A DNA stretch of 64,000 bases from an uncultured Candidatus Saccharibacteria bacterium. Lineage in GTDB: Bacteria; Patescibacteriota; Minisyncoccia; Portnoybacterales; UBA2143. The number at the start of each line of letters is the position of its first letter. Positions within the stretch are counted from its first letter, which is position 1. The DNA is taken from contig CAZQUN010000004.1 of NCBI GenBank assembly GCA_964596615.1, positions 432 through 64,431 of the forward strand. Direction: 5' to 3'. Of this stretch, positions 17,714-32,262 are shown piece by piece. A program made the translations under genes and the position numbers. The notes under the pieces are model-generated. The model was given only the letters and a program-made list of their open reading frames with translations. It did not search any database and was not told the origin of the DNA.

Positions 17714-18056
17714 CAACCACTCATTGATCAAGGAGGTCGATATGGGTATTTCAGTTAAAAGAGGACATAAGGCGGCAGTGAGGATAATCTCGCACCTTAT
17801 TTTCCTATTAACCCCTTTATTTATTTGGTGGCAGGGACAGGATTTATTTGGCTGGTCGCCATGGCTATTATACTTCCTGCAGGTCGGTCTTTGGAGCCCG
17901 TTCGTTGTTATCTATGCAGTAAAAGATTATTTCAGTTTTCCTGCCGGGGTCGCATATTATGAGTTTCATGAATGGAGAGAAATCCCAATGGAATTTTTAT
18001 TCCCTCATGTTGAGTTAGTTTTAGGCAAATTGGGGGAGGATCTATTTCCTTCCTAA
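17703..18056 (+). CDS. Hypothetical membrane protein
   Basis: 117 aa with TM helices. It sits where prp/rpmA usually follow rplU. Confidence 0.3.
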   Translation: MNLNNHSLIKEVDMGISVKRGHKAAVRIISHLIFLLTPLFIWWQGQDLFGWSPWLLYFLQVGLWSPFVVIYAVKDYFSFPAGVAYYEFHEWREIPMEFLFPHVELVLGKLGEDLFPS

Positions 18057-18641
18057 AAAGGCACTACCTAAGGTATGTTCGTCTATGTATTCAAGATCGG
18101 AGCCGGTTGATAGCCCTCGCGCCAATCGGCTCGTTTTTATTTCCAACCCCCCAAGCATTCTTTCAATATATAAAGCCGTAGTATCTCCCTCGGTTGTCGG
18201 ACTAAAAGCGAATATAATTTCCTTTATCTCTGGCTGGGATTTTTTAATTCTAGAAATTAATTGATTAATTTTCAAGTTTTCCGGGCCAATGCCATTTCCC
18301 GGAGAAATTAATCCGCCTAAAACATGATAAAGTCCATGATATTGTTTGGTTTTTTCAATCGGAATAATATTCAAAAGATTTTCAACCAAACAGAGAGTTG
18401 ATTTATCTCTTTTGCCATCAAGGCAAATTGGACAGAAATTCTTGCTTTTTTCAGTCAGGTTATAGCATTGGGGACAAAGATTAATTTCAGTTTTAAGATT
18501 TTTAACAGCCAAAGAAAAATCATCTAATTCTTTTTGATTCTGATTAAGCAAATGAAAAACCATCCGAGTCGCAGATCTCGGTCCAATTTCCGGCAATTTG
18601 GATAACTCATTGATAAGTTTTTGAACTGATTTTGGAAACAT
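18042..18641 (-). CDS. recR: Recombination protein RecR
   Basis: Has the HhH motif PGIGPRSATR, a C4 zinc finger CPQCYNLTEKSKNFCPIC and a Toprim domain. The start is trimmed to the MFPKS codon at 18641, directly after the dnaB stop; the six-frame ORF extends to 18755. Confidence 0.85.
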   Translation of the reverse strand: MFPKSVQKLINELSKLPEIGPRSATRMVFHLLNQNQKELDDFSLAVKNLKTEINLCPQCYNLTEKSKNFCPICLDGKRDKSTLCLVENLLNIIPIEKTKQYHGLYHVLGGLISPGNGIGPENLKINQLISRIKKSQPEIKEIIFAFSPTTEGDTTALYIERMLGGLEIKTSRLARGLSTGSDLEYIDEHTLGSAFLGRK

Positions 18642-18642
18642 A

Positions 18643-20013
18643 TTATTCCTCCAATCTTTTCTCCAGATTCCTGAAACTAACCTGGCTTTCATTGAAATAT
18701 AATTCAGCTCGGCCAGTTGGACCATTACGATGCTTGGCGATAATAATATCAGCAATATTTTTCCGGTCGGTATTAGGCCTTTCCTTATCCTCCCGATAGA
18801 TGAAAATCACCACATCAGCGTCCTGTTCTAAACTTCCACTTTCTCTTAAATCAGAAAGTTTGGGAATAGCCGGGGAGCGGGATTCAACAGAACGGTTGAG
18901 TTGGGAAATGGCTAAAACGGGAACTTCAAGTTCTCTGGCCAAAGATTTCAAACTTCGGGATATTTCTGTCATTTGCTGAACGGGCGAATCAAAATTATTC
19001 CTCGGCTGAATCATTTGGATGTAATCGATAATAATTAAACCAAGATTGTTTTGAGCCTGAAGTCGGCGAGCCATGGTTCTCATCTGTAAAATAGTCGGAG
19101 AAGGAGTATCATCAATATAGATTGAAGCATCCGATAATTCATCCAGCGCTCTCTGGATTTTTTCAAAATCATTATCCGGTCCTTCGCCGGATAAACGACC
19201 GGTCCGTATTCTCCAGGAATCAACTTCTGCCTGAGAACTAATTAACCGGTCAACTAATTGTTCCTTGGACATTTCAATACTAAAAACGGCAACTGGTGTT
19301 TTTTCCTTAATCGAAGTATGTCGAGCAATATTAAGAGCAAGCGAGGTTTTTCCAAGAGAAGGGCGGGCGCCTAAAATAATTAAATCGGATTTCTGAAAAC
19401 CAGAAAGATAGTTGTCAATATCAGCAAATCCGGTCGGGATACCTCTTGTGGCTTCTTCGCCCCGGTGCAACTTATCAATTCTTTCAAAAGCGCTTTCTAA
19501 AGCATCTTTAACCGGCATGAATTTCTGACTGACTGATCTTTGAGAAACACTAAATATCTTCTGTTCAGATTCATCGATCAGGGTTTCAACATCATCTGGT
19601 TCCTGATAACTTAATTGACTAATTTCATTAGAAGCTCCGATTAAATCACGAAGGGCTTTTTTGTTTTTAACAATTTTGGCGTAGTGGGTAATATGGGCGG
19701 CAGTTGGAACGGAATTAACCAGGTCAGTCAAATAGGTTGCTCCGCCAATTTCTTTTAATTTCTTTTTCTCTTCTAATCGGTTGGTTAAACTTAATAAATC
19801 AATTGGTTCATTTTTTTCATAAAGATCAACCATGGCTTGATAAATGCTGGTATGGATCCCTCGGTAGAAATCATCAGCAACAAGAATATCAGCTATTTTA
19901 ATAATAGCGTCTTTGTCCAACATCAAGGCTCCCAGAACAGATTGTTCGGCTTCAATATTCTGAGGCGGTAGTTTGCCTTCTATTTTAACTGATGGTTGTG
20001 TTTTTTCTGCCAT
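18643..20013 (-). CDS. dnaB: Replicative DNA helicase DnaB (canonical copy)
   Basis: 456 aa with Walker A GARPSLGKTS, and the conserved motifs SIEMS, IIDYIQMI, ISQLNR, LRESGSLEQDADVV and AKHRNGPTG. Confidence 0.9.
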   Translation of the reverse strand: MAEKTQPSVKIEGKLPPQNIEAEQSVLGALMLDKDAIIKIADILVADDFYRGIHTSIYQAMVDLYEKNEPIDLLSLTNRLEEKKKLKEIGGATYLTDLVNSVPTAAHITHYAKIVKNKKALRDLIGASNEISQLSYQEPDDVETLIDESEQKIFSVSQRSVSQKFMPVKDALESAFERIDKLHRGEEATRGIPTGFADIDNYLSGFQKSDLIILGARPSLGKTSLALNIARHTSIKEKTPVAVFSIEMSKEQLVDRLISSQAEVDSWRIRTGRLSGEGPDNDFEKIQRALDELSDASIYIDDTPSPTILQMRTMARRLQAQNNLGLIIIDYIQMIQPRNNFDSPVQQMTEISRSLKSLARELEVPVLAISQLNRSVESRSPAIPKLSDLRESGSLEQDADVVIFIYREDKERPNTDRKNIADIIIAKHRNGPTGRAELYFNESQVSFRNLEKRLEE

Positions 20014-23539: not shown

Positions 23540-24016
23540 ATGAAAAAGAAGAAAATTACTTATCTTTCTGAAGAATCCGGAGACGAACTCAAAAAGATTA
23601 AAGATAAACTTAAGGAATGCCAAAAAGAAAAGGAGGAGTACCTGACCCAGGCGCAGCGTGCCCGGGCTGATTTGATTAACCACAAAAGAAGGCAGGAAGA
23701 AATGAAAGATAATCTGGCAGATAGTCTGGAAGCAAATATTGTCAGAGATTTTCTCCCGATCCTGGATAGTTTGAAAGCCGGGGCTAAAAAAGATAAAGGG
23801 ATAGAACAGGTTTTAAATCAGTTTCAACAAGAATTAATTAAAAAAGGGTTAGAAGAAATTAAATCTCTCGGTCAAAAGTTTAATCCCGAAATACACGAAG
23901 CAATCGAAGAAATAGAATCCAAAGAGGAACCCGGGATAATTGTTGAAGTAGTCCAGGACGGATACAGGATAAATAATTTAATATTAAGACCAAGCAAGGT
24001 TAAAATTAGTAAATAG
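23540..24016 (+). CDS. grpE: Nucleotide exchange factor GrpE
   Basis: Has a coiled-coil N-terminus and the GrpE-like motif RARADLINHKRRQEE, and heads the dnaK operon. Confidence 0.6.
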   Translation: MKKKKITYLSEESGDELKKIKDKLKECQKEKEEYLTQAQRARADLINHKRRQEEMKDNLADSLEANIVRDFLPILDSLKAGAKKDKGIEQVLNQFQQELIKKGLEEIKSLGQKFNPEIHEAIEEIESKEEPGIIVEVVQDGYRINNLILRPSKVKISK

Positions 24017-24029
24017 AAAGGGAAATACC

Positions 24030-24467
24030 ATGCCTATCAAATGGCAACCATTCAAAGATTTAAATAAGCGACCTCATCTTCCTGATATTTTTGAAGAAGA
24101 TGATCGAATGCCTTTTTCTCCGCATTTCCAGCAGGAAGAACCGGCAATTGATATTTATCAGGATAGAAACAATCTCTATATCGAACTTCCTTTAATTGGC
24201 ATTAAAGCCAAAGATGTTAGCGTTTCTATAAAGAATAATATTTTAATTATTGAAGGGAAAATTCAAGAAAAGAAAGAGGCCAAAGAAAAAGACTATATCA
24301 GAAAAGAAATCAGAAAAGGTTCTTTCCATCGGGCAATCAGATTGCCAGTTGAAGTTAAAGGAAACCAAGCCAGCGCTGAAACATCTGAAGGCATGCTTAA
24401 AATCACTCTTCCCAAAGCAGTCAAAGGGGCTCCTAAAGCTAATCGGGTCCCAATTAGGATTAAATAA
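24030..24467 (+). CDS. Small heat-shock protein (Hsp20 / alpha-crystallin family)
   Basis: 145 aa with an alpha-crystallin domain ([21 protein letters not shown] ... FHRAIRLP ... GMLKITLPK). Confidence 0.75.
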
Positions 24468-24469
24468 CT

Positions 24470-26314
24470 ATGAGTAAAGTAATTGGTATTGATTTAGGAA
24501 CCTCTAATTCTGCAGCCGCAGTTGTTGAGGCCGGAAAACCAACCATAATTCCTTCAGCCGAAGGAACAGTTATTGGCGGAGGCAAGGCCTTTCCATCCTA
24601 TGTTGCCCTTGATAAGAATGGCGGTCTTTTAGTTGGCGAGCCAGCCAGAAGACAGGCAGTCAGTAATCCGGAAAACACGGTTTCTGCTTTCAAGCGGAAA
24701 ATGGGGACAAAGGAAAAATATAGTTTGAATGGCAAGGAGTATACGCCGGAACAACTTTCTGCTTTTGTCCTGCAGAAAATTAAAAAAGATGCCGAGGCCT
24801 TTTTAGGCGAACCAATCCAGAAAGCAGTCATTACTGTCCCGGCCTATTTCAATGATTCTCAAAGACAAGCAACCAAAGACGCCGGCTCAATCGCCGGATT
24901 AGAAGTTGTCCGAATTATCAACGAGCCAACAGCGGCTTCTCTTTCTTATGGAATTGACAAGGCCGGTCAGGAAGAAAAGATTCTTGTTTTTGACTTTGGC
25001 GGCGGAACTCTTGATGTCACAATTATGGATTTTGGCGAAGGTGTTTTCGAAGTTAAATCAACCTCAGGCGATACTCAATTGGGCGGAACCGATATGGATG
25101 AAATTCTAGTTGAATATATTCTTGAAGAATTTAAAAAAGAAAACAATATTGATTTAAAAGAAGATCGGACAGCCTTGGAAAGAGTTAAAGATGCGGCTGA
25201 AAAAGCTAAAATTGAACTATCAAGCGTTTTAGAAACAGACATTATCATTCCTTTTATCAGTCAATCCAAGGAATTGAATATGAAAATTACCCGGGCGAAA
25301 TTGGAAGAATTAGTTAAGCCCATTGTTGAAAAATGCCGCGGTCCATTGGAGCAGGCTTTAAATGATTCTAAACTAACTCCTAATGATATTACTAAAATAA
25401 TCCTGGTTGGCGGACCGACCCGAATGCCGATTGTTCAAAGTTTTGTTGAGGACTATGCCGGCAAAAAGATTGAAAGGGGAGTTGACCCAATGGAATGTGT
25501 TGCTCTTGGAGCGGCAATTCAGGGTGGAATTCTGACCGGAGAAACAAAAGATGTTCTTTTGCTTGATGTTACTCCGCTGACTTTAGGGATTGAAACTCTT
25601 GGTCAGGTCATGACTCCTTTAATTGAAAGAAATACAACCATTCCAACTTCTAAATCACAGGTTTTTTCAACAGCAGCTGATAATCAGCCGGCAGTTGATG
25701 TTCATGTTCTTCAGGGAGAAAGGCCAATAGCGACTGATAACCGAACCCTGGGCCGATTTATTCTTGATGGCATTCCGCCTGCTCCAAGGGGCGTTCCTCA
25801 GATTGAAGTTAGTTTTGACATTGATGCCAACGGAATTTTAAATGTCAAAGCTAAGGACAAAGCAACCAACAAGGAACAGAAAATTACTATTACCGACTCT
25901 TCATCCCTTTCCAAAGAAGACATTGAAAAAATGAAAAAGGAAGCTGAAGCTCATTCAGCTGAAGACAGAAAGAAAAAAGAATTAATTGAAACCAGAAATC
26001 AGGCTGATACTTTAATCTTTTCAACCGAGAAAGCCATAAAGGAAGCTGGTGATAAAGTTAAACCAGAAGACAAAAAAGAAGTTGAAGAAAAATTAGAATC
26101 TCTCAAAAAACTTAAAGATTCTAATGAAGTTGATTCTCTTAAAAAAGCAATTGATGAATTATCCCAGGTTATCCAGAAAATCGGCGCTCAATTGTATCAG
26201 AAAGTTGAGGAGGAAAAGAAAGAACAGAGTGAGCCGGAAATTAAAGGAGACAAAAAGACAGTTAAAGGAGAATACGAAGAAATTAAAAAGGAGGGGAATA
26301 ATGCGAATAAATAA
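24470..26314 (+). CDS. dnaK: Chaperone DnaK (Hsp70)
   Basis: 614 aa with the signature motifs [29 protein letters not shown] and [15 protein letters not shown]. Confidence 0.95.
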
Positions 26315-27077
26315 AAATCAAATAACTAACTCAGTCATTGTCGGTCTGGCAACTCTGGTTGCTGCAATTACCTGGGCCGGACTGAAAGGAGTATTGTTTA
26401 ACGATGGTTCTTGGATTTGGCCGAGCATTGGCCTTTTAATTTTATCAGTTTTCCTGAGTTTGAACTGGCTTTTAACCAAGTCAAGGACAATCCTTTTAAC
26501 AACCCTTGTCTTTATTCTGATTACTTTTTTACTCACTTTTGGTTTTGAAATTGAATTCTTGGCTGTTCTTGTTTTATCCTTGTTTTTCTTTGTTTTTGGT
26601 TCTTTCCGGGCAATTTCTGAAAAAGAGGACAGAATTAAAATTAACTCAATTAAAATCGTTAAAAGGGGCCTGCCATATATTATGACCGGCCTTGCTCTTG
26701 TTATTGCCTCGGCCTACTATTTTTCTCCTTTATCCACACTCGGCCAGGAAAGAATTGAAATTCCTCGTCCTTTCTTTGATAATATTATCGGTCCGGCAAG
26801 TGAGGTTTTTGAAGGGCAAACTGGTTTTGACTTGGGAGAAACACAGGAAACCCTTTATCAAACAATTAACGGAGAGATTAATAAGCGGAGCGAACCTTAC
26901 AAAGGATTTATTCCAATTAGTTTATCTATCGGTGTCTTTTTCGCCCTTAAAGTTATTAGCATCCCTTTTATCTGGCTAACAATTCTCTTGGCTTCTCTCA
27001 TTTTCAAAATCCTGATTTGGACAAAGGCAATCCATATCCATGAGAAGTCTGTTCTGAAGGAGGTAATCGAAATTTAA
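26301..27077 (+). CDS. Hypothetical polytopic membrane protein inserted between dnaK and dnaJ
   Basis: The start is trimmed to the ATG at 26301, which has a GGAGG RBS and lies inside the dnaK 3' end. It is in frame with the longer six-frame ORF and has about 6 TM helices. Confidence 0.45.
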
Positions 27078-27079
27078 CC

Positions 27080-28165
27080 ATGGCTCAAGATTATTACGAA
27101 GTTCTCGGCGTTGACAAAGGCGCTGACGAGGGAGAAATTAAAAAGGCCTATCGGAAATTAGCTCTTAAATACCATCCTGACCGGGCACCGGAAAGCAAGA
27201 AGAAAGAATACGAGGAAAAATTCAAGGAAATCAGCCAGGCCTACCGAATTTTATCCGATAAAGAAAAAAAAGCCCAGTATGACCAGTTTGGCCAAACCTT
27301 TGAAGGACAGACGCCATTTGGACAGGGATTTTCCCAGCAGGACTTTCATTCTTTTTATGACGCTTTTGGCGGAGAAGATATTTTTGAAGACCTGGGCTTT
27401 AACAGAATTTTCGAAGAAATCTTTGGCAGAGGGACCAGAGCAACTGCCCAGGCCGGTGATGATATTTCTATTGATATCGAGATTGGTTTAGAAGATGCCT
27501 ACAACGGGCTAGAAAAAGAAATTGATTTAAGGAAATTGGTAACTTGTTCTAAATGTCAGGGTAAAGGCGGAAAAAAACTAAAGAAGTGTTCAGTTTGTCA
27601 GGGAAGCGGTTACCAACAGACCCAAAGCAGAAGTATTTTTGGATATTTTATCCAACAAAGACCCTGTTCCCAATGCCAAGGCAGAGGAGAGATTCCAGAG
27701 GAAGAATGTCATTATTGCCGCGGACAGGGCCGAATCAAAGAGGATAAAAAAATTAAAGTCACTATTCCCCAGGGAATTGAAGATGGCCAGATTTTAAGAT
27801 TAAGCGGACAGGGGCAGGCCGGGAAACACGGCAGGCAATCAGGCGACCTTTTTGTTAACATCCATATCAAAGACCATAAGTATTTTAAACGTCAGCAAGA
27901 TAATCTTTTTTATGAGTTAGTTATCAACTTTACCCAGGCAAGTTTGGGTGATAAAATAGGGATACCGGCTATTGATGGGGAGGTTAATCTAAAAATTCCA
28001 TCAGGAACACAATCCGGAGAATTAATTGAATTAAAAGGCAAGGGCATGCCTCGGCTCTATGGAAGGGGAAAAGGGGATATGATTGTCAGGGTTCAAGTGG
28101 AAGTTCCTAAGAAGTTATCCCGTCAGCAAAAGAAATTAGTTCAAGAATTAAGTAAAACTAATTAA
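27080..28165 (+). CDS. dnaJ: Chaperone DnaJ
   Basis: Has a J-domain (YYEVLGV ... HPDR), a G/F region, a 4x CxxCxGxG zinc finger and a C-terminal substrate-binding domain. Confidence 0.9.
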
Positions 28166-28786: not shown

Positions 28787-28860
28787 GGGGGTATAGCTCA
28801 GTGGTAGAGCAGAGGCCTTTTAAGCCTTTGATGGGGGTTCGATTCCCTCTACCCCTACCA
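28787..28860 (+). tRNA. tRNA-Lys (anticodon UUU), CCA encoded
   Basis: Acceptor GGGGGTA/TACCCCT, D-arm GCTC-AGTGGTA-GAGC, anticodon stem GAGGC/GCCTT with loop CTTTTAA, T-arm GGGGG-TTCGATT-CCCTC, then ACCA. A -10-like TATTAT lies immediately upstream. Confidence 0.85.
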
Positions 28861-28924: not shown

Positions 28925-30289
28925 CTATTCAGTTTCTCCCTCCTCCCAAGAGAGATATTCCCCCCAGAAAGTAAGGGGTATATTGCCAGGCGTCCCTCCT
29001 TTGCCGACAATAATCTCGGCATCTCTTTCGGGTTTACCTTCTTCTTCAATCTTTTTTGGTTCGTAAGCATTTGGTCGGTAGAGCAAGAGGATTTTATTGC
29101 TTAACTCTTCGGCTGCTTTACTGAATAAATCAGAAGTTTTGGGGCGCTTATCTTCTCTGTCTTCTAGTTTTCGATTGAGCTGGCTTGAAATAATGACCGG
29201 TATTTTTATCTGATAGCAGAAGGGCTTGATTTTTTCAATGATGAAATCAGCTTGTTCTAGGGGGTGCTTAAATTCTTTGCCAGGCCAAAAAAGTTCTTGT
29301 AAATTTTCAATAATCAGCAATCCAGGGCCCTGATTAAGTTTGTCTATTTTTTCTAGGGCATTTATTATCTCTATCTGGAGGGCCGGCACAGCAATCCTTT
29401 GTTTAATTACAATGCTGTGAATTGGCGCGTCATTGATCTGTTGATGGCATCGATCCATCATTTCCAATTCATCTTTTTCTGTTATTCTGCCTCCCCCTAT
29501 CTTATTAAGGGGGATTTTACATCTTTGGGCATCCAGACGACGGTAGATTATCGGCATTACCATCTGTGCCCCGCAATAAACAACCGGACTACCTTCATCA
29601 ATAGCCGTATGAGACAGAAACTCAAGGACTAGGGCTGTTTTTCCCATTCCTGTTCTGCCGCCGACAATTGTTAGCTCATAAGGCATAAATCCCCCAATTG
29701 CGCGATTAAGCGATTCAAAAGGCGTCTCTTTGCTAAAAGAAAAGTAGTCAAAAAGTTCTTCAGTAGAGAGCTCCAGCTTGTTGGCGCCACTTCCTTTTGC
29801 CGCTTTTTTCATTATTTCCGAGGGCATCTCAATGACTTTGGCAACCAGTTCATCTACCCTGACACCAGGGGTAAAGGCAGTTCTAGCTAATTCATTGGTT
29901 TTCTCTAAGACCACTCTCTTTACCGCGTCTCCTTTGATAATCTTGGCGTGATGAGCGACATTTTCCGTTGCCGGCGTTCCGTCGTGGAGTATGACAAGAT
30001 AACTGGCTCCACCAACACTTTCGAGTTCGCCTTTCTTTTTGAGTTGATTGGTCAGAGTAAGAAGGTCAATCGGCGTTTCCTCGTTAGTCAGATCAATCAT
30101 GGCAGCAAAAATTTTTTGATGGGCGGGCTTGTAGAAATCTTCGGCCTCTAGGATTTGCCAGGCCGTAAGAAATTTTTTGTTCTCCTGTAAGATTCTCCCA
30201 ATGACTGATCCTTCAGCTTCAGGACTTTGGGGTGGCAGAGAGAACTGGGGAAAATCTTTGGCTGTCTTATCTTTCGCTTTTTCTCTCAT
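28925..30289 (-). CDS. Divergent DnaB-family replicative helicase paralog, translationally coupled to the upstream reverse transcriptase
   Basis: 454 aa with a DnaB N-terminal domain (EAEGSVIGRIL ... IDLLTLTNQL), Walker A GGRTGMGKTA, Walker B-like LLIIENLQ, ISSQLNR and a KGGTPG loop. The start overlaps the RT stop by 23 nt, and a GGAGG RBS lies inside the RT 3' end. Confidence 0.75.
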   Translation of the reverse strand: MREKAKDKTAKDFPQFSLPPQSPEAEGSVIGRILQENKKFLTAWQILEAEDFYKPAHQKIFAAMIDLTNEETPIDLLTLTNQLKKKGELESVGGASYLVILHDGTPATENVAHHAKIIKGDAVKRVVLEKTNELARTAFTPGVRVDELVAKVIEMPSEIMKKAAKGSGANKLELSTEELFDYFSFSKETPFESLNRAIGGFMPYELTIVGGRTGMGKTALVLEFLSHTAIDEGSPVVYCGAQMVMPIIYRRLDAQRCKIPLNKIGGGRITEKDELEMMDRCHQQINDAPIHSIVIKQRIAVPALQIEIINALEKIDKLNQGPGLLIIENLQELFWPGKEFKHPLEQADFIIEKIKPFCYQIKIPVIISSQLNRKLEDREDKRPKTSDLFSKAAEELSNKILLLYRPNAYEPKKIEEEGKPERDAEIIVGKGGTPGNIPLTFWGEYLSWEEGETE

Positions 30290-31334
30290 TTTCTGCCTCC
30301 TTTATCTTTTCTCGGTATAAAATCCAGTACTCTCTTACCCAGCCGGGCCAGTGTTGTTCTTGGCCATAGATTTGCCGAATGTACATAGCAATGCCGATAA
30401 CATATTTTTTGGGATAGGCGTCGTCATATTTCCAAGCCATAAAGAAAATTCGGCGATAGGCATTCTTTTTCCGATGGTTGATATGAATTTTCTGATGTTT
30501 CTTACCAACAATCGTCAGCCCGAGCATATGAGGGGTGGTTTTCCCCAGATTATCTTTTGTTTTCTCTGGCTTAACGGAAAAGCCAGATTTGGTCGGGATT
30601 GCCAGTAATTCTTCTTTGATTTCAGGTGAAATTATTTCCTTTGAGGCGAAGTTGAAATCGTCGGCGTAGACAAACCATTTTATATTGTGTGTTTGGCAAA
30701 TCCGGTCCATCTCACAACACATGGGCTCGTAAACAAGATTTAGCAAAGCCGGGCTGCACGACGCTCCTTGAGGCAGGCGACGCTGTTCATTATAATGATA
30801 GGTTACCAACCAGGATAAAGGATCAATTAGGGCCTTATTAATCCCTAATTTTTCAAGGGATTGTTTTACCATTTCCTTTGTAATACTGGGAAAAGCATCG
30901 GCTATATCAAAGCTGAAATAATGAACGTTTCCCAAAAGTGTCTGTGTTGCTTTAAGAGTATTTCTTTTTTTAACAAACCCATATGCATTTTGATGGGCGG
31001 GCCTAAGTTCAACCAATGTTTTTCCGATTGCTCTGAGCGCTTTTTGGACTATCGGATGCGGAGCAAGGATTTTTCTTGGCTTTTTTCCTTTCCGCAAAGT
31101 AAATCCTCTGAAGCCATGAGAAAATGTTTCTTGGACTGATTTGCCTTTAACCATAATTTCGTCCTCGAATTCTACTCTGCCTATTATCTTCCATGCCTTT
31201 CTCAAGACCTTTTTCGTAGTTTTTAGTTTCTCTGCTAGTGCTTTCAGTGCCCAGGAAAACTGGACATCAAGAGAAACATCTTCCATTGACCGAAACTCAT
31301 ATTTTTCCAGCGTTTCTGGTTTTTCTGAATACAT
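30267..31334 (-). CDS. Reverse transcriptase (RT motifs 1, 2, 4 and 5 present; 355 aa, no maturase/endonuclease domain)
   Basis: Motif 1 RKILAPHP, motif 2 FDIADAFPSI, motif 4 LPQGASCSPALLNL (QGxxxSP type) and motif 5 FVYADDF are present. Motifs 6/7 read KPEKTK ... MLGLTIVG. A GGAGG RBS lies 7 nt upstream of the ATG. Confidence 0.8.
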   Translation of the reverse strand: MYSEKPETLEKYEFRSMEDVSLDVQFSWALKALAEKLKTTKKVLRKAWKIIGRVEFEDEIMVKGKSVQETFSHGFRGFTLRKGKKPRKILAPHPIVQKALRAIGKTLVELRPAHQNAYGFVKKRNTLKATQTLLGNVHYFSFDIADAFPSITKEMVKQSLEKLGINKALIDPLSWLVTYHYNEQRRLPQGASCSPALLNLVYEPMCCEMDRICQTHNIKWFVYADDFNFASKEIISPEIKEELLAIPTKSGFSVKPEKTKDNLGKTTPHMLGLTIVGKKHQKIHINHRKKNAYRRIFFMAWKYDDAYPKKYVIGIAMYIRQIYGQEQHWPGWVREYWILYREKIKEAENERKSER

Positions 31335-31382
31335 TTTAGCCTCCTATGTTATCCTTAAGGGTTATAAGTTTTTAAAGAATTT

Positions 31383-31707
31383 GCCCCGCGCCAGGTTTGT
31401 CTTCACTAGCGCGAGGACTTTCAGGCAGTTGGGTGATATCAGGACGGCTTTTCCCTTCGCTTTATCAACCTCAAGCCGGGCAGGAAAGGTCGAGGAGCGA
31501 GGGGTGCCGAGGAGAGGAGAGGATTCGTCCGGGTTCCGGCGGAATAAAGTATCTATCAAACCGGAGGGGTCCGGGGTGTCCCCGGGCTCTCCTTGCTCTC
31601 ATGTTCTCCGCTGCCTGAGCTCAGAAAGCGGTTTAAGACCTATTTCGAAACATAAGATATTTCCGAAACGAACCTTGTGAGAGCCCAAGATTCTTCGGTC
31701 TTGTTTT
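31383..31707. ncRNA. GC-rich structured element (candidate RT-associated ncRNA or independent structured RNA), strand unresolved
   Basis: About 320 nt is far more GC-rich than its surroundings. It contains a 13-bp imperfect hairpin (31563-31592), a purine tract GAGGAGAGGAGAGGA complementary to a downstream CTCTCCTT/CTCTC tract, a 10-bp palindrome CTGAGCTCAG, and a plus-strand hairpin plus T4 at its 3' edge. No credible long ORF overlaps it. Confidence 0.5.
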
Positions 31708-31815
31708 ATCCCATTCGCCTGTTTGATTATTTCTAACACAAAAGAGATTTTTTCGCAAGAAAGTCAATTAATAGTGTTTATCCACCTTATTTATGCTAGA
31801 ATATTGGATAGGAAA

Positions 31816-32262
31816 ATGTATCATATAGCGATAATGAGGAAATCCTGGGGTCTCTTGCCCAAGATTTTAACCAAAGAAAAGACAATTGAATCACGCTGGT
31901 ATATGAATAAATATTCTCCTTGGGACAGGATTAAAAAAGGGGATATTGTTTATTTTGAGAATTCTGGTGAACCGGTTAGTATTAAAACAGAAGTTTCAAA
32001 GATTATTCAGTATTCGGATTTAACGCCAGTCAAAGCAAAACAAATTCTTCAAAAATATGGCGCTAAAGATGGCCTGGGTATTAATGAAATTGACAAATAT
32101 TATCAGATGTTTAAAGGTAAAAAATATTGCTTGTTAATTTTTCTTAAAAACCCGCAGGGAACTAAATCTTTTGATATTGATAAGACCGGATTTGGAGCGA
32201 TGGCGGCCTGGATAGTAGTTGATAATATAAAAAGAGTTAAGAGAAATCTTTTTACAGTTTAA
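31816..32262 (+). CDS. ASCH (PUA-like) domain protein
   Basis: Carries the ASCH signature ILTKEKTIESRW (GxKxxExR-like). The start is trimmed to MYHIAIMRK at 31816. Confidence 0.5.
   Translation: MYHIAIMRKSWGLLPKILTKEKTIESRWYMNKYSPWDRIKKGDIVYFENSGEPVSIKTEVSKIIQYSDLTPVKAKQILQKYGAKDGLGINEIDKYYQMFKGKKYCLLIFLKNPQGTKSFDIDKTGFGAMAAWIVVDNIKRVKRNLFTV

What the first reader, a model, noticed from the sequence alone, without database searches (positions are those of the whole stretch)
30267..31334. Stand-alone 355-aa reverse transcriptase with an ambiguous clade signature
Motif 2 (FDIADAFPSIT) and motif 4 (LPQGASCSPALLNL) closely resemble the retron Ec86 RT (NIDLEDFFPSL; LPQGAPSSPKLANL). The region after YADD reads KPEKTK ... 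MLGLTIVG, which could correspond either to the retron 'VTG' motif 7 or to the group II / G2L 'KT ... FLGF' thumb motif. No maturase (X), endonuclease, nitrilase, primase or other fused domain is present, and there is no DGR-type I/LGxxxSQ signature. Free-standing RTs of this size in reduced genomes are mostly uncharacterised.
Basis: partly seen in the sequence, partly recalled or inferred. Interest (0 to 1): 0.6.

Follow-up and report, generated by a model that had tools for sequence, protein, structure and literature searches.

The report
Retron-like RT with DnaB-like partner
The reverse transcriptase is real but not free-standing: it is the middle part of a conserved three-part cassette (structured RNA, retron-type reverse transcriptase, altered copy of the replication helicase DnaB) found mostly in tiny-genome Patescibacteria, and probably an unstudied variant of retron phage defence.

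Summary
The 355-aa ORF (30267-31334, minus strand) is real and encodes a reverse transcriptase (RT) with an intact catalytic site. Profile and fold comparisons place it with retron RTs, not group II or G2L RTs.

It is not stand-alone.
- Its stop codon overlaps by 23 nt the start of a 454-aa DnaB-family gene (28925-30289).
- A ~300-nt GC-rich structured RNA precedes it (31422-31722). The RNA is closed by a covarying long-range a1/a2 stem, as in retron msr-msd RNAs.
- RNA, RT and DnaB-like gene recur together in every related locus with enough sequence. These are about 20 distinct loci, mostly Patescibacteria, each with different neighbours.

The DnaB-like protein is a second copy; the window also has a canonical dnaB at 18643-20013. 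The RT-linked clade keeps Walker A and a DnaB-like N-terminal domain. It has lost the arginine finger and the ssDNA loop, changed Walker B from IDY to IEN, and usually lost the catalytic glutamate.

The RT fits none of the 13 retron types and lacks the NAxxH and VTG hallmark motifs. A 2026 preprint describes RT plus DnaB_C modules in another retron lineage, so this is a new variant of a known kind. The mechanism (msDNA-controlled replisome mimic) is inferred, not shown.

The parts
31730..31758 (-). Promoter-like site TTGCGA-17 nt-TAGAAA (preceded by TGTGT), ending 7 nt upstream of the a1 repeat
   Evidence: Read from the sequence. In 13 of 20 related loci the best-scoring sigma-70-like pair matches at least 8 of 12 consensus positions and its -10 hexamer ends 1-9 nt before a1. 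The strict consensus scan did not call the window's own site, so it is inferred.
31422..31722 (-). Conserved structured non-coding RNA (a1 to a2, 301 nt), candidate msr-msd-like template RNA. a1 31710-31722; three-way junction P1/P1a/P1b 31637-31700; hairpin P2 31608-31631; hairpin P3 31571-31585 followed by ACCCC; variable region with a CU-rich tract at 31509-31523; a2 31422-31433
   Evidence: GC is 0.58-0.59 against 0.38 for the window. The fold z-score is -3.9. RNAalifold predicts 33 pairs in the 5' domain, 23 of them with compensatory changes. The a1/a2 duplex averages -21.2 kcal/mol with the cognate partner against -13.6 when partners are permuted; 0 of 100000 permutations reach the observed value. 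Covariance model R1 (P2+P3) hits once in the 64 kb window, at 31566-31633 minus strand, with 68 bits and E 2e-16. There is no Rfam match.
31368..31416 (-). GC-rich terminal hairpin (31384-31416) followed by the conserved AAATTCTTTAAAAAC (31368-31382), between a2 and the RT ribosome-binding site
   Evidence: The hairpin with covarying arms is present in about half of the loci. The TTCTTT(T)AAAA motif follows the hairpin, or a2 directly, in most loci. The scan did not call it as an intrinsic terminator. Its role is unknown.
30267..31334 (-). Retron-type reverse transcriptase, 355 aa; SD-like AGGAGG at 31339-31346
   Evidence: RVT_1 E 4e-20. PADLOC RT_III-A 122 bits, RT_IX 113, RT_II-A 112. NCBIfam retron_St85_RT 111.5 bits, below its 235 cut-off. 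Catalytic D143, D225 and D226 are invariant in 24 homologues. AF2 pLDDT 91.8. Foldseek top 18 hits are retron RTs.
28925..30289 (-). DnaB-family paralogue, 454 aa, with a rewired ATPase site; its start overlaps the RT stop by 23 nt
   Evidence: Pfam DnaB N-domain 4.9e-31 and DnaB_C 1.1e-36. It scores below the NCBIfam DnaB cut-offs: 214.8 against 525, and 213.5 against 385. PDB 7t22 aligns at E 1.6e-49 over the full length. Motif losses are consistent across all 22 RT-linked copies. The 15 closest database proteins share the IENLQ signature and lack KxRNG and SLEM, whereas the next 105 are canonical.

Best explanation
The ORF is the reverse transcriptase (RT) of a retron-like three-part cassette, read on the minus strand in this order: promoter, ~300-nt structured RNA closed by an a1/a2 stem, RT, then a translationally coupled DnaB-like protein.

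Shown:
- The three parts are conserved together and co-diversify.
- The RT is of retron type with an intact active site.
- The RNA has a covarying structure.
- The DnaB-like protein is a second copy of DnaB. It keeps the P-loop and a canonical-looking N-terminal domain. It has lost the arginine finger, the RESG ssDNA-binding loop and usually the catalytic glutamate, and it carries an invariant IENLQQ in place of the IDYLQ Walker B.

Inferred:
- As in retrons, the RT binds the conserved 5' hairpins and copies part of the variable 3' half of the RNA into a small cDNA (msDNA).
- The RT-RNA-cDNA complex holds the DnaB-like protein in check.
- Phage infection disturbs the complex. The freed DnaB-like protein cannot work as a helicase but can still dock to DnaB partners (primase, loader or DnaB itself). 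It then blocks DNA replication and aborts the infection.
For: Conserved linkage:
- RT plus DnaB-like are adjacent in all family loci that have downstream sequence, with different flanking genes.
- The same result comes from starting at the DnaB-like protein.
- RT and DnaB-like identities correlate (Spearman 0.84, p 4e-5), and no other neighbour is conserved.
- Gene starts and stops overlap or abut.

Retron affinity of the RT.

RNA. The covariance model also finds the RNA in L043, a locus not used to build it.

DnaB-like protein:
- Motif changes. Clean clade split from canonical DnaBs.
- A canonical dnaB is present in the same window at 18643-20013.
- The N-terminal domain is 43% identical to the housekeeping DnaB, against 40% within its own family. 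The C-terminal domain is 27% against 41%.

Distribution:
- It is rare and patchy: 9 family loci (a tenth hit, L017, is a distant non-family RT) in a scan of one genome per 185,579 species, made with two short family-specific peptide patterns, so this is a lower bound. This fits an accessory rather than a core function.
- The nearest RT outgroup lineage (P0200, P0345) also has a degenerate DnaB paralogue at +1.
Against: - No msDNA, branching G or phenotype can be shown here.
- The two hallmark retron RT motifs are absent: NAxxH is replaced by KATQT, and VTG by MLG (motif definition from 10.64898/2026.05.14.725207).
- The RNA is larger than typical retron ncRNAs, and its variable half folds into several hairpins rather than one long msd stem.
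- The invariant Walker A and invariant IENLQQ suggest a selected, possibly still active, rewired NTPase rather than a dead one. Four of 22 copies keep the catalytic Glu.
- The loci sit among housekeeping genes, not in defence islands.
- No relatives were found on viral contigs.
Confidence: 0.6

Rival explanations
1. It is simply a member, or the Patescibacteria branch, of the protease-less type XI-like 'TXI_noncan_h' retrons with DnaB_C partners described in the 2026 SPIRE survey preprint. On this reading the kind is already described.
For: - The gene order is the same: DnaB_C at +1 in 14 of 20 loci. There is an upstream ncRNA with a1/a2-like repeats, and HMM confidence is low.
- One Moraniibacteriota RT is typed 'typeXI low' in their Table S2.
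- The sister lineage P0200 scores about equally to II-A and XI models.
- The distant homologues of P0200 include RT-trypsin-protease fusions, which is the type XI architecture.
Against: - For this family PADLOC gives RT-Protease_XI 83 bits against RT_III-A 122.
- 22 of 29 TXI_noncan_h RTs keep NAxxH and VTG; this family lacks both.
- That lineage is reported from Bacillota and Bacteroidota with a compact 23-bp RNA 22-104 bp upstream.
- Eight of the nine genome contigs carrying this family were searched for in their tables and none is listed.
- The preprint does not describe the loss of ATPase motifs.
Confidence: 0.3
2. The RT uses the RNA as a template in a non-retron way, as DRT2 or DRT9 do (repetitive or homopolymeric cDNA, no 2'-5' branched msDNA). 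The DnaB-like protein would be the sensor or the cDNA-binding partner.
For: - The RT lacks the retron-specific motifs.
- The RNA is large and multi-domain.
- The variable region holds a CU-rich tract: longest pyrimidine run 11 on average against 7.2 in shuffles.
- DRT2 and DRT9 RT structures are also significant fold matches, at 3e-10.
Against: - All best sequence and fold matches are retron RTs.
- NCBIfam Drt2 reaches only E 0.014.
- An end-closing a1/a2 stem is the retron architecture.
Confidence: 0.15
3. The pair is a replication module: either of a small mobile element, or a replisome accessory of the host in which the DnaB paralogue recruits the RT to forks. It would not be an immune system.
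For: - The partner is a DnaB paralogue with a conserved primase-binding-type N-terminal domain.
- A tRNA gene abuts the 3' end of the cassette in 3 of about 20 loci.
- The neighbours are housekeeping genes.
Against: - No integrase, repeats or other element genes are present, and only two genes plus the RNA are conserved.
- The helicase motifs are lost.
- The cassette is rare among Patescibacteria genomes.
- It is absent from viral contigs.
Confidence: 0.08
4. One reading: a free-standing RT with no partners, possibly G2L-like.
For: Only an RVT_1 domain is found in the ORF. Motif 7 has LG, as in group II-type RTs.
Against: - The DnaB-like partner and the upstream RNA are conserved.
- TIGR04416 scores 46.9 bits against a cut-off of 300.
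- No intron RNA is found.
- G2L4 ranks far below retron RTs in fold search.
Confidence: 0.02

Closest known systems
Retrons (msr-msd ncRNA + RT + effector; types I-XIII of Mestre et al. 2020; solved examples Ec86/Eco1, Ec78/Eco7, Ec67/Eco2, Ec83, Eco8)
   Same: - The RT is closest to retron RTs in sequence and fold.
- A structured RNA lies upstream on the same strand, closed by covarying a1/a2 repeats.
- The 5' hairpins are conserved and the 3' half is variable.
- One accessory gene sits in the operon.
- The taxonomic distribution is patchy.
   Different: - The RT scores at most 122 bits to any type model, against 300-400 for true members.
- NAxxH and VTG are absent.
- The RNA is about 300 nt (242-420 in relatives) with a three-way junction.
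- The hosts are Patescibacteria.
TXI_noncan_h, DnaB_C-associated protease-less type XI-like retrons (Toro, bioRxiv 10.64898/2026.05.14.725207)
   Same: - An RT is followed at +1 by a separate DnaB_C-containing protein.
- An upstream ncRNA is predicted.
- The function is unknown.
   Different: - The reported hosts are Bacillota and Bacteroidota.
- Those RTs are mostly NAxxH/VTG-compatible.
- Their RNA is compact.
- Some of those loci lie next to CRISPR-Cas.
- No statement is made on ATPase-site degeneration.
- Membership could not be tested because no sequences are held.
Replicative helicase DnaB
   Same: - The protein is full length with two domains: an N-terminal collar domain and a RecA-like C-terminal domain.
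- It has a P-loop and an SQLNR-like motif.
- It aligns end to end with solved DnaB structures.
   Different: - It is a second copy beside a canonical dnaB.
- The arginine finger is deleted (KQRNG becomes K--GG).
- The LRESG ssDNA loop is lost.
- Walker B IDY is changed to IEN.
- The catalytic Glu is replaced in 18 of 22 copies.
- It scores below the NCBIfam DnaB cut-offs.

Membership tests
Retron | RT belongs to the retron RT assemblage by profile and fold | tested here: met
   The 25 best PADLOC hits shown (of 48) are all retron RT models. retron_St85_RT matches at 4.5e-32. All 11 PDB sequence hits are retron RTs. The Foldseek top 18 are retron RTs.
Retron | RT assignable to one of the 13 described types | tested here: not met
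   The best score is 122 bits (RT_III-A), with IX and II-A within 10 bits. True members of III-A, II-A and XIII score 290-400 bits to their own model. In an exhaustive profile search the family is isolated: 524 and 465 bits, then at most 169.
Retron | [quoted passage not shown] | tested here: not met
   Ec86 NATPH sits at KATQT here, one residue off the printed HMMER alignment; only the Ala is invariant. Ec86 VTG aligns with MLG, and the family has an invariant L271-G272-L273.
Retron | Upstream ncRNA flanked by a1/a2 inverted repeats, with conserved msr-like hairpins | tested here: met
   a1 is at 31710-31722 and a2 at 31422-31433.
Retron | Conserved accessory (effector) gene in the same operon | tested here: met
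   The DnaB-like gene sits at +1 in all loci that have downstream sequence.
Retron | Synthesis of msDNA branched from a 2'-OH of a conserved G; anti-phage phenotype | not testable with these tools
   This needs expression and nucleic-acid analysis. An invariant G (G11 of a1, window 31712) exists but lies inside the inner helix.
TXI_noncan_h (type XI-like, DnaB_C-associated) | Protease-less RT with a separate DnaB_C protein, mostly at +1 | tested here: met
   definition.
TXI_noncan_h (type XI-like, DnaB_C-associated) | RT placed inside the type XI-like clade (RT clade 8) | tested here: inconclusive
   The XI model scores 83 bits against 122 for III-A. However, the nearest outgroup lineage has type XI-like affinities. 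No reference sequences were available for a tree.
TXI_noncan_h (type XI-like, DnaB_C-associated) | Compact double stem-loop RNA 22-104 bp upstream of the RT; Bacillota/Bacteroidota hosts | tested here: not met
   Here the RNA is 301 nt and ends 87 nt before the ATG. Named hosts are mostly Patescibacteria. Eight of the nine genome contigs were searched for in their Table S2 and none was found.
Replicative DnaB helicase | Score above the curated family cut-off, and intact Walker B Asp, catalytic Glu, RESG loop and Arg finger | tested here: not met
   It scores 214.8 against 525, and 213.5 against 385.25. Motif table. The residue roles come from established DnaB structural work (Bst DnaB E241, D320, R381/E382/G384, K418/R420), recalled from memory.
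Group II intron RT / G2L | Maturase/thumb profile match and, for introns, flanking intron RNA domains | tested here: not met
   TIGR04416 scores 46.9 bits against a cut-off of 300. There is no group II intron Rfam hit. GsI-IIC and G2L4 rank below all retron RTs.
DRT / UG-Abi defence RTs | Best profile match to a DRT/UG class | tested here: not met
   Only Drt2 appears, at E 0.014. No DRT model is among the top 25 PADLOC hits.

The most novel reading that the evidence does not exclude
The cassette is a replisome-mimicry immune system, and would be the first defence system characterised for Patescibacteria. A DnaB paralogue keeps the partner-binding N-terminal collar and nucleotide binding but cannot translocate. 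It would act as a decoy or dominant-negative subunit of the replicative helicase. It would be kept silent by an RT-made cDNA-RNA complex and released when a phage hijacks or inhibits DnaB, its loader or primase. The recurrence of different degenerate DnaB paralogues next to related RTs (this family, the P0200/P0345 lineage, TXI_noncan_h) would then mark a broad, unrecognised class of retron effectors.
Probability: 0.25. Interest if true: 0.8.

Novelty: new variant of a known kind. Interest (0 to 1): 0.6.

Why it matters
Retron effectors known so far are nucleases, NADases, proteases, membrane proteins and similar. A helicase paralogue with a rewired, probably non-translocating ATPase site would be a different way of stopping replication.

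It would also give a concrete, testable hypothesis for the unexplained 'DnaB_C-RT' association noted in a 2026 survey. Patescibacteria have very small genomes and few recognised defence systems. A compact RNA-RT-pseudohelicase cassette kept among their housekeeping genes is therefore informative about how they cope with phages.

The RT lacks the NAxxH and VTG motifs used to recognise retrons, so motif- or threshold-based catalogues may miss this lineage. The well-defined ~300-nt RNA with a variable 3' half is also a candidate new scaffold for retron-based DNA-writing tools.

Tried and rejected
- **Rfam.** The whole window at gathering thresholds, and the region at E up to 10, gave no family for the upstream RNA.
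- **tRNA-targeted island.** tRNA-Lys at 28787-28860 abuts the cassette, but only 3 of about 20 loci have a tRNA there. There is no integrase and no direct repeat of the tRNA end.
- **Phage origin.** No relative was found in 2.9 million viral contigs.
- **Other conserved neighbours.** The upstream ASCH-like ORF (31723-32262) and the 112-aa ORF of L003 are not shared between loci.
- **Consensus promoter and terminator scan.** It called neither the window's promoter-like site nor the post-a2 hairpin. Both are inferred from conservation only.
- **Identity with TXI_noncan_h by accession.** Eight of the nine genome contigs were searched for in the preprint's tables and none was found. One supplement part was read without resolving the question.
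- **Covariance model R1 on outgroup RT loci** (L017, L041, L042, L045-L048). There were no hits, so the RNA is specific to this family.
- **MAFFT alignment of the full RNA.** It was too poor across the variable region for column-wise a1/a2 counts. A duplex-energy permutation test was used instead.
- **Organism of the window.** The cluster look-up returned no name. Patescibacteria is inferred from relatives.
Full report
**Observation**

The ORF is as described: 30267..31334 on the minus strand, 355 aa. It contains the strings FSFDIADAFPSIT, RRLPQGASCSPALLNL, YADD and KPEKTK...MLGLTIVG. Pfam finds only RVT_1 (E 4e-20, residues 95-275). In an alignment of 24 homologues the three catalytic aspartates D143, D225 and D226 are invariant. 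The enzyme is therefore likely active.

**Which kind of RT**

- NCBIfam's best match is retron_St85_RT (4.5e-32, 111.5 bits, below its 235 cut-off). The group II intron RT/maturase model scores 46.9 bits against a cut-off of 300, and Drt2 reaches E 0.014.
- The 25 best PADLOC matches are all retron RT models: RT_III-A 122 bits, RT_IX 113, RT_II-A 112, and RT-Protease_XI 83.
- All 11 sequence matches among solved structures are retron RTs, including Kva2, Ec86, Ec83, Eco8 and Ec78.
- An AlphaFold2 model built from the family alignment has mean pLDDT 91.8. Its 18 best Foldseek matches in the PDB are retron RTs (3e-16 to 4e-12). GsI-IIC follows at 1e-11, DRT2 and DRT9 at 3e-10, and G2L4 at 2e-9.

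The RT is not, however, a member of a described type. Proteins that do belong to types III-A, II-A or XIII score 290-400 bits to their own PADLOC model, against at most 122 here. An exhaustive profile search of 1.84 billion representatives shows an isolated family: 524 and 465 bits, then a drop to 169 and 153 bits.

[quoted passage not shown] Neither is present. The Ec86 NATPH motif sits at KATQT here (one residue off the printed alignment), with only the Ala invariant. Its VTG aligns with MLG, within an invariant LGL.

**Not stand-alone: the protein partner**

A 454-aa ORF at 28925..30289 (minus strand) starts 23 nt before the RT stop codon. It has both DnaB domains: N-domain 4.9e-31 and DnaB_C 1.1e-36.

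Looking up RT homologues of 43-61% identity gives the same pair every time, embedded in different housekeeping neighbourhoods. tblastn over the genome and metagenome loci finds a DnaB homologue directly downstream wherever downstream sequence exists.

Starting instead from the DnaB-like protein, two further loci also have the RT upstream. These are L043 and L044, the latter cut inside the RT. RT and DnaB-like identities to the window copy correlate (Spearman 0.84, p 4e-5), and no other neighbour is shared. Named hosts are mostly Patescibacteria, including Moranbacteria, Giovannonibacteria, Parcubacteria and Saccharibacteria. There are no relatives on viral contigs.

**The DnaB-like protein is a rewired paralogue**

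The window also holds a canonical dnaB at 18643..20013 (minus strand), next to recR. All 22 RT-linked copies were aligned with that gene and with E. coli DnaB.

| Feature | Canonical DnaB | RT-linked copies |
|---|---|---|
| Walker A | GKT/S | kept in all 22 |
| Walker B | IDY | IEN in all 22 (LQQ follows in most) |
| Catalytic Glu (SLEM) | present | replaced in 18 of 22 |
| ssDNA loop | LRESG | lost |
| Arginine finger | KQRNG | K--GG, by a two-residue deletion |

Among the best 120 database homologues, the first 15 carry the IENLQ signature and lack KxRNG and SLEM. The remaining 105 carry all three canonical motifs. The protein scores below the NCBIfam DnaB cut-offs, yet it aligns end to end with solved DnaB (E 1.6e-49).

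The N-terminal domain is as close to the housekeeping DnaB (43%) as to its own family (40%). The C-terminal motor domain has diverged: 27% against 41%. The residue roles come from published DnaB structures and are recalled, not tested. A rewired but active NTPase cannot be excluded.

**Not stand-alone: the RNA**

Between the RT and the next gene lie 388 nt (31335-31722). They have GC 0.58-0.59 in a 0.38 window, and every related locus shows the same GC peak 100-400 nt upstream of the RT. The strand of the RT folds better than shuffles, with z -3.9.

Twenty distinct loci share the same order of elements:
- a promoter-like site,
- a1,
- a three-way junction,
- hairpin P2 (CCGCU-UCUG...CGGA-GGCGG),
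- a GAGAAAA spacer,
- hairpin P3 (GGGG-ACA-CCCC) followed by ACCCC,
- a variable 68-204 nt stretch,
- a2,
- often a GC hairpin,
- TTCTTT(T)AAAA,
- the ribosome-binding site.

RNAalifold on the 5' domain predicts 33 pairs, 23 of them with compensatory double changes. The a1 and a2 segments lie 242-420 nt apart and differ in sequence between subfamilies, for example CAGGC/GCCTG, GAGCGGG/CCCGCTC and CAGCGAGTGAC/GTCACTCGCTG. They stay complementary within each locus. The mean duplex energy is -21.2 kcal/mol for cognate pairs against -13.6 (sd 0.85) when partners are permuted, and none of 100000 permutations reaches the observed value.

A covariance model of P2+P3 hits once in the 64 kb window, at 31566-31633 on the minus strand (68 bits, E 2e-16). 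It hits once upstream of the RT in each family locus, including L043, which was not used to build it. It does not hit outgroup RT loci. Rfam has no match.

An end-closing a1/a2 stem, conserved 5' hairpins and a variable 3' half together make up the retron msr-msd layout. The RNA is larger than usual, though, and its variable half folds into several hairpins.

**Relation to what is known**

A literature search found one direct precedent, a 2026 preprint (10.64898/2026.05.14.725207). It reports 'TXI_noncan_h': protease-less type XI-like retron RTs with a separate DnaB_C protein in 20 of 29 loci, mostly at +1. It also reports a compact predicted RNA and Bacillota/Bacteroidota hosts, and states that the meaning of the association is unclear.

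This family differs in host, RNA size, motif compatibility and best type model. Eight of its nine genome contigs were searched for in the preprint's tables and none is listed. I could not build a joint tree.

The nearest RT outgroup lineage (P0200 and P0345, 153 bits to the family profile) also has a DnaB paralogue at +1. In L046 that paralogue is even more degenerate and only 17% identical to this one. The distant homologues of P0200 include RT-protease fusions, which is the type XI architecture.

So RT plus degenerate DnaB is a recurring theme across a wider, poorly charted part of the retron tree. This family is a distinct branch of it.

**Mechanism**

Shown:
- the three parts are conserved together;
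- the RT site is intact;
- the RNA structure covaries;
- helicase motifs are lost while the P-loop and N-terminal domain are retained;
- a canonical dnaB is also present;
- the distribution is rare and patchy.

Inferred by analogy with characterised retrons:
- the RT makes a cDNA from the variable half of the RNA;
- the ribonucleoprotein restrains the DnaB-like protein;
- on infection, that protein acts as a non-translocating mimic of DnaB and blocks replication.

The rivals are listed separately with the tests that would separate them.

**Verdict**

The 'stand-alone' reading is wrong. The thing is a new variant of the retron kind with an unusual partner. The mechanism is hypothetical.

Noticed in passing
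window 18643-20013 (-), with recR at about 18042-18755 (-): The window carries a second, canonical dnaB (456 aa) with all helicase motifs intact. It is 29% identical to the RT-linked copy, so this genome has two DnaB-family genes about 9 kb apart.
   Followed up: yes
window 28787-28860 (+): tRNA-Lys(UUU) lies 64 nt from the 3' end of the DnaB-like gene, on the opposite strand. L025 and L043 likewise have a tRNA-Val just downstream of the cassette, but most loci have none. No integrase or att-like repeat was found.
   Followed up: partly
window 31509-31523 (-), and the variable RNA region of related loci: There is a CU-rich tract (UCCUCUCCUCUCCUC here). The longest pyrimidine run averages 11 nt in 20 loci against 7.2 in shuffles. 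It could pair with the purine-rich GAGAAAAG spacer after P2, or template a GA-rich cDNA.
   Followed up: partly
window 31368-31382 (-), and related loci: The motif TTCTTT(T)AAAA is conserved right after a2 or after the terminal hairpin. It also occurs in the unrelated-partner outgroup locus L045. It is not a terminator by the simple scan, and its role is unknown.
   Followed up: no
L045:1636-1955 and 1953-2963: The outgroup RT P0201 (336 aa, untyped; best PADLOC score 171 bits) has an upstream RNA bounded by GACGTGGGCTA...TAGCCCACGTC that abuts the ATG. Its downstream gene has no DnaB similarity. It looks like another uncatalogued retron-like system.
   Followed up: partly
L046:4001-6570: The sister lineage RT (P0345) is followed by a 433-aa DnaB paralogue that keeps Walker A and the Walker B Asp but has lost SQLNR, RESG and the Arg finger. 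It is 17% identical to the window's copy. The RT gene call of 390 aa probably includes upstream non-coding sequence.
   Followed up: partly
L016:7974-9099: The RT is split into two overlapping frames in this MAG. The metagenome contig L029 has an identical upstream region, and there the RT matches the query as a single tblastn segment. This is probably an assembly indel rather than a pseudogene.
   Followed up: no
window 31723-32262 (+): The divergent neighbour is a 179-aa ORF (148 aa by the gene call) with only a weak ASCH match (E 0.061). It is not conserved next to the cassette elsewhere.
   Followed up: partly
window 23540-28165 (+): A heat-shock cluster (grpE, hsp20, dnaK, a membrane protein, dnaJ) sits immediately beside the cassette on the opposite strand. 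The cassette is the only minus-strand block in this stretch, and its GC is slightly higher (0.42 against 0.38).
   Followed up: no
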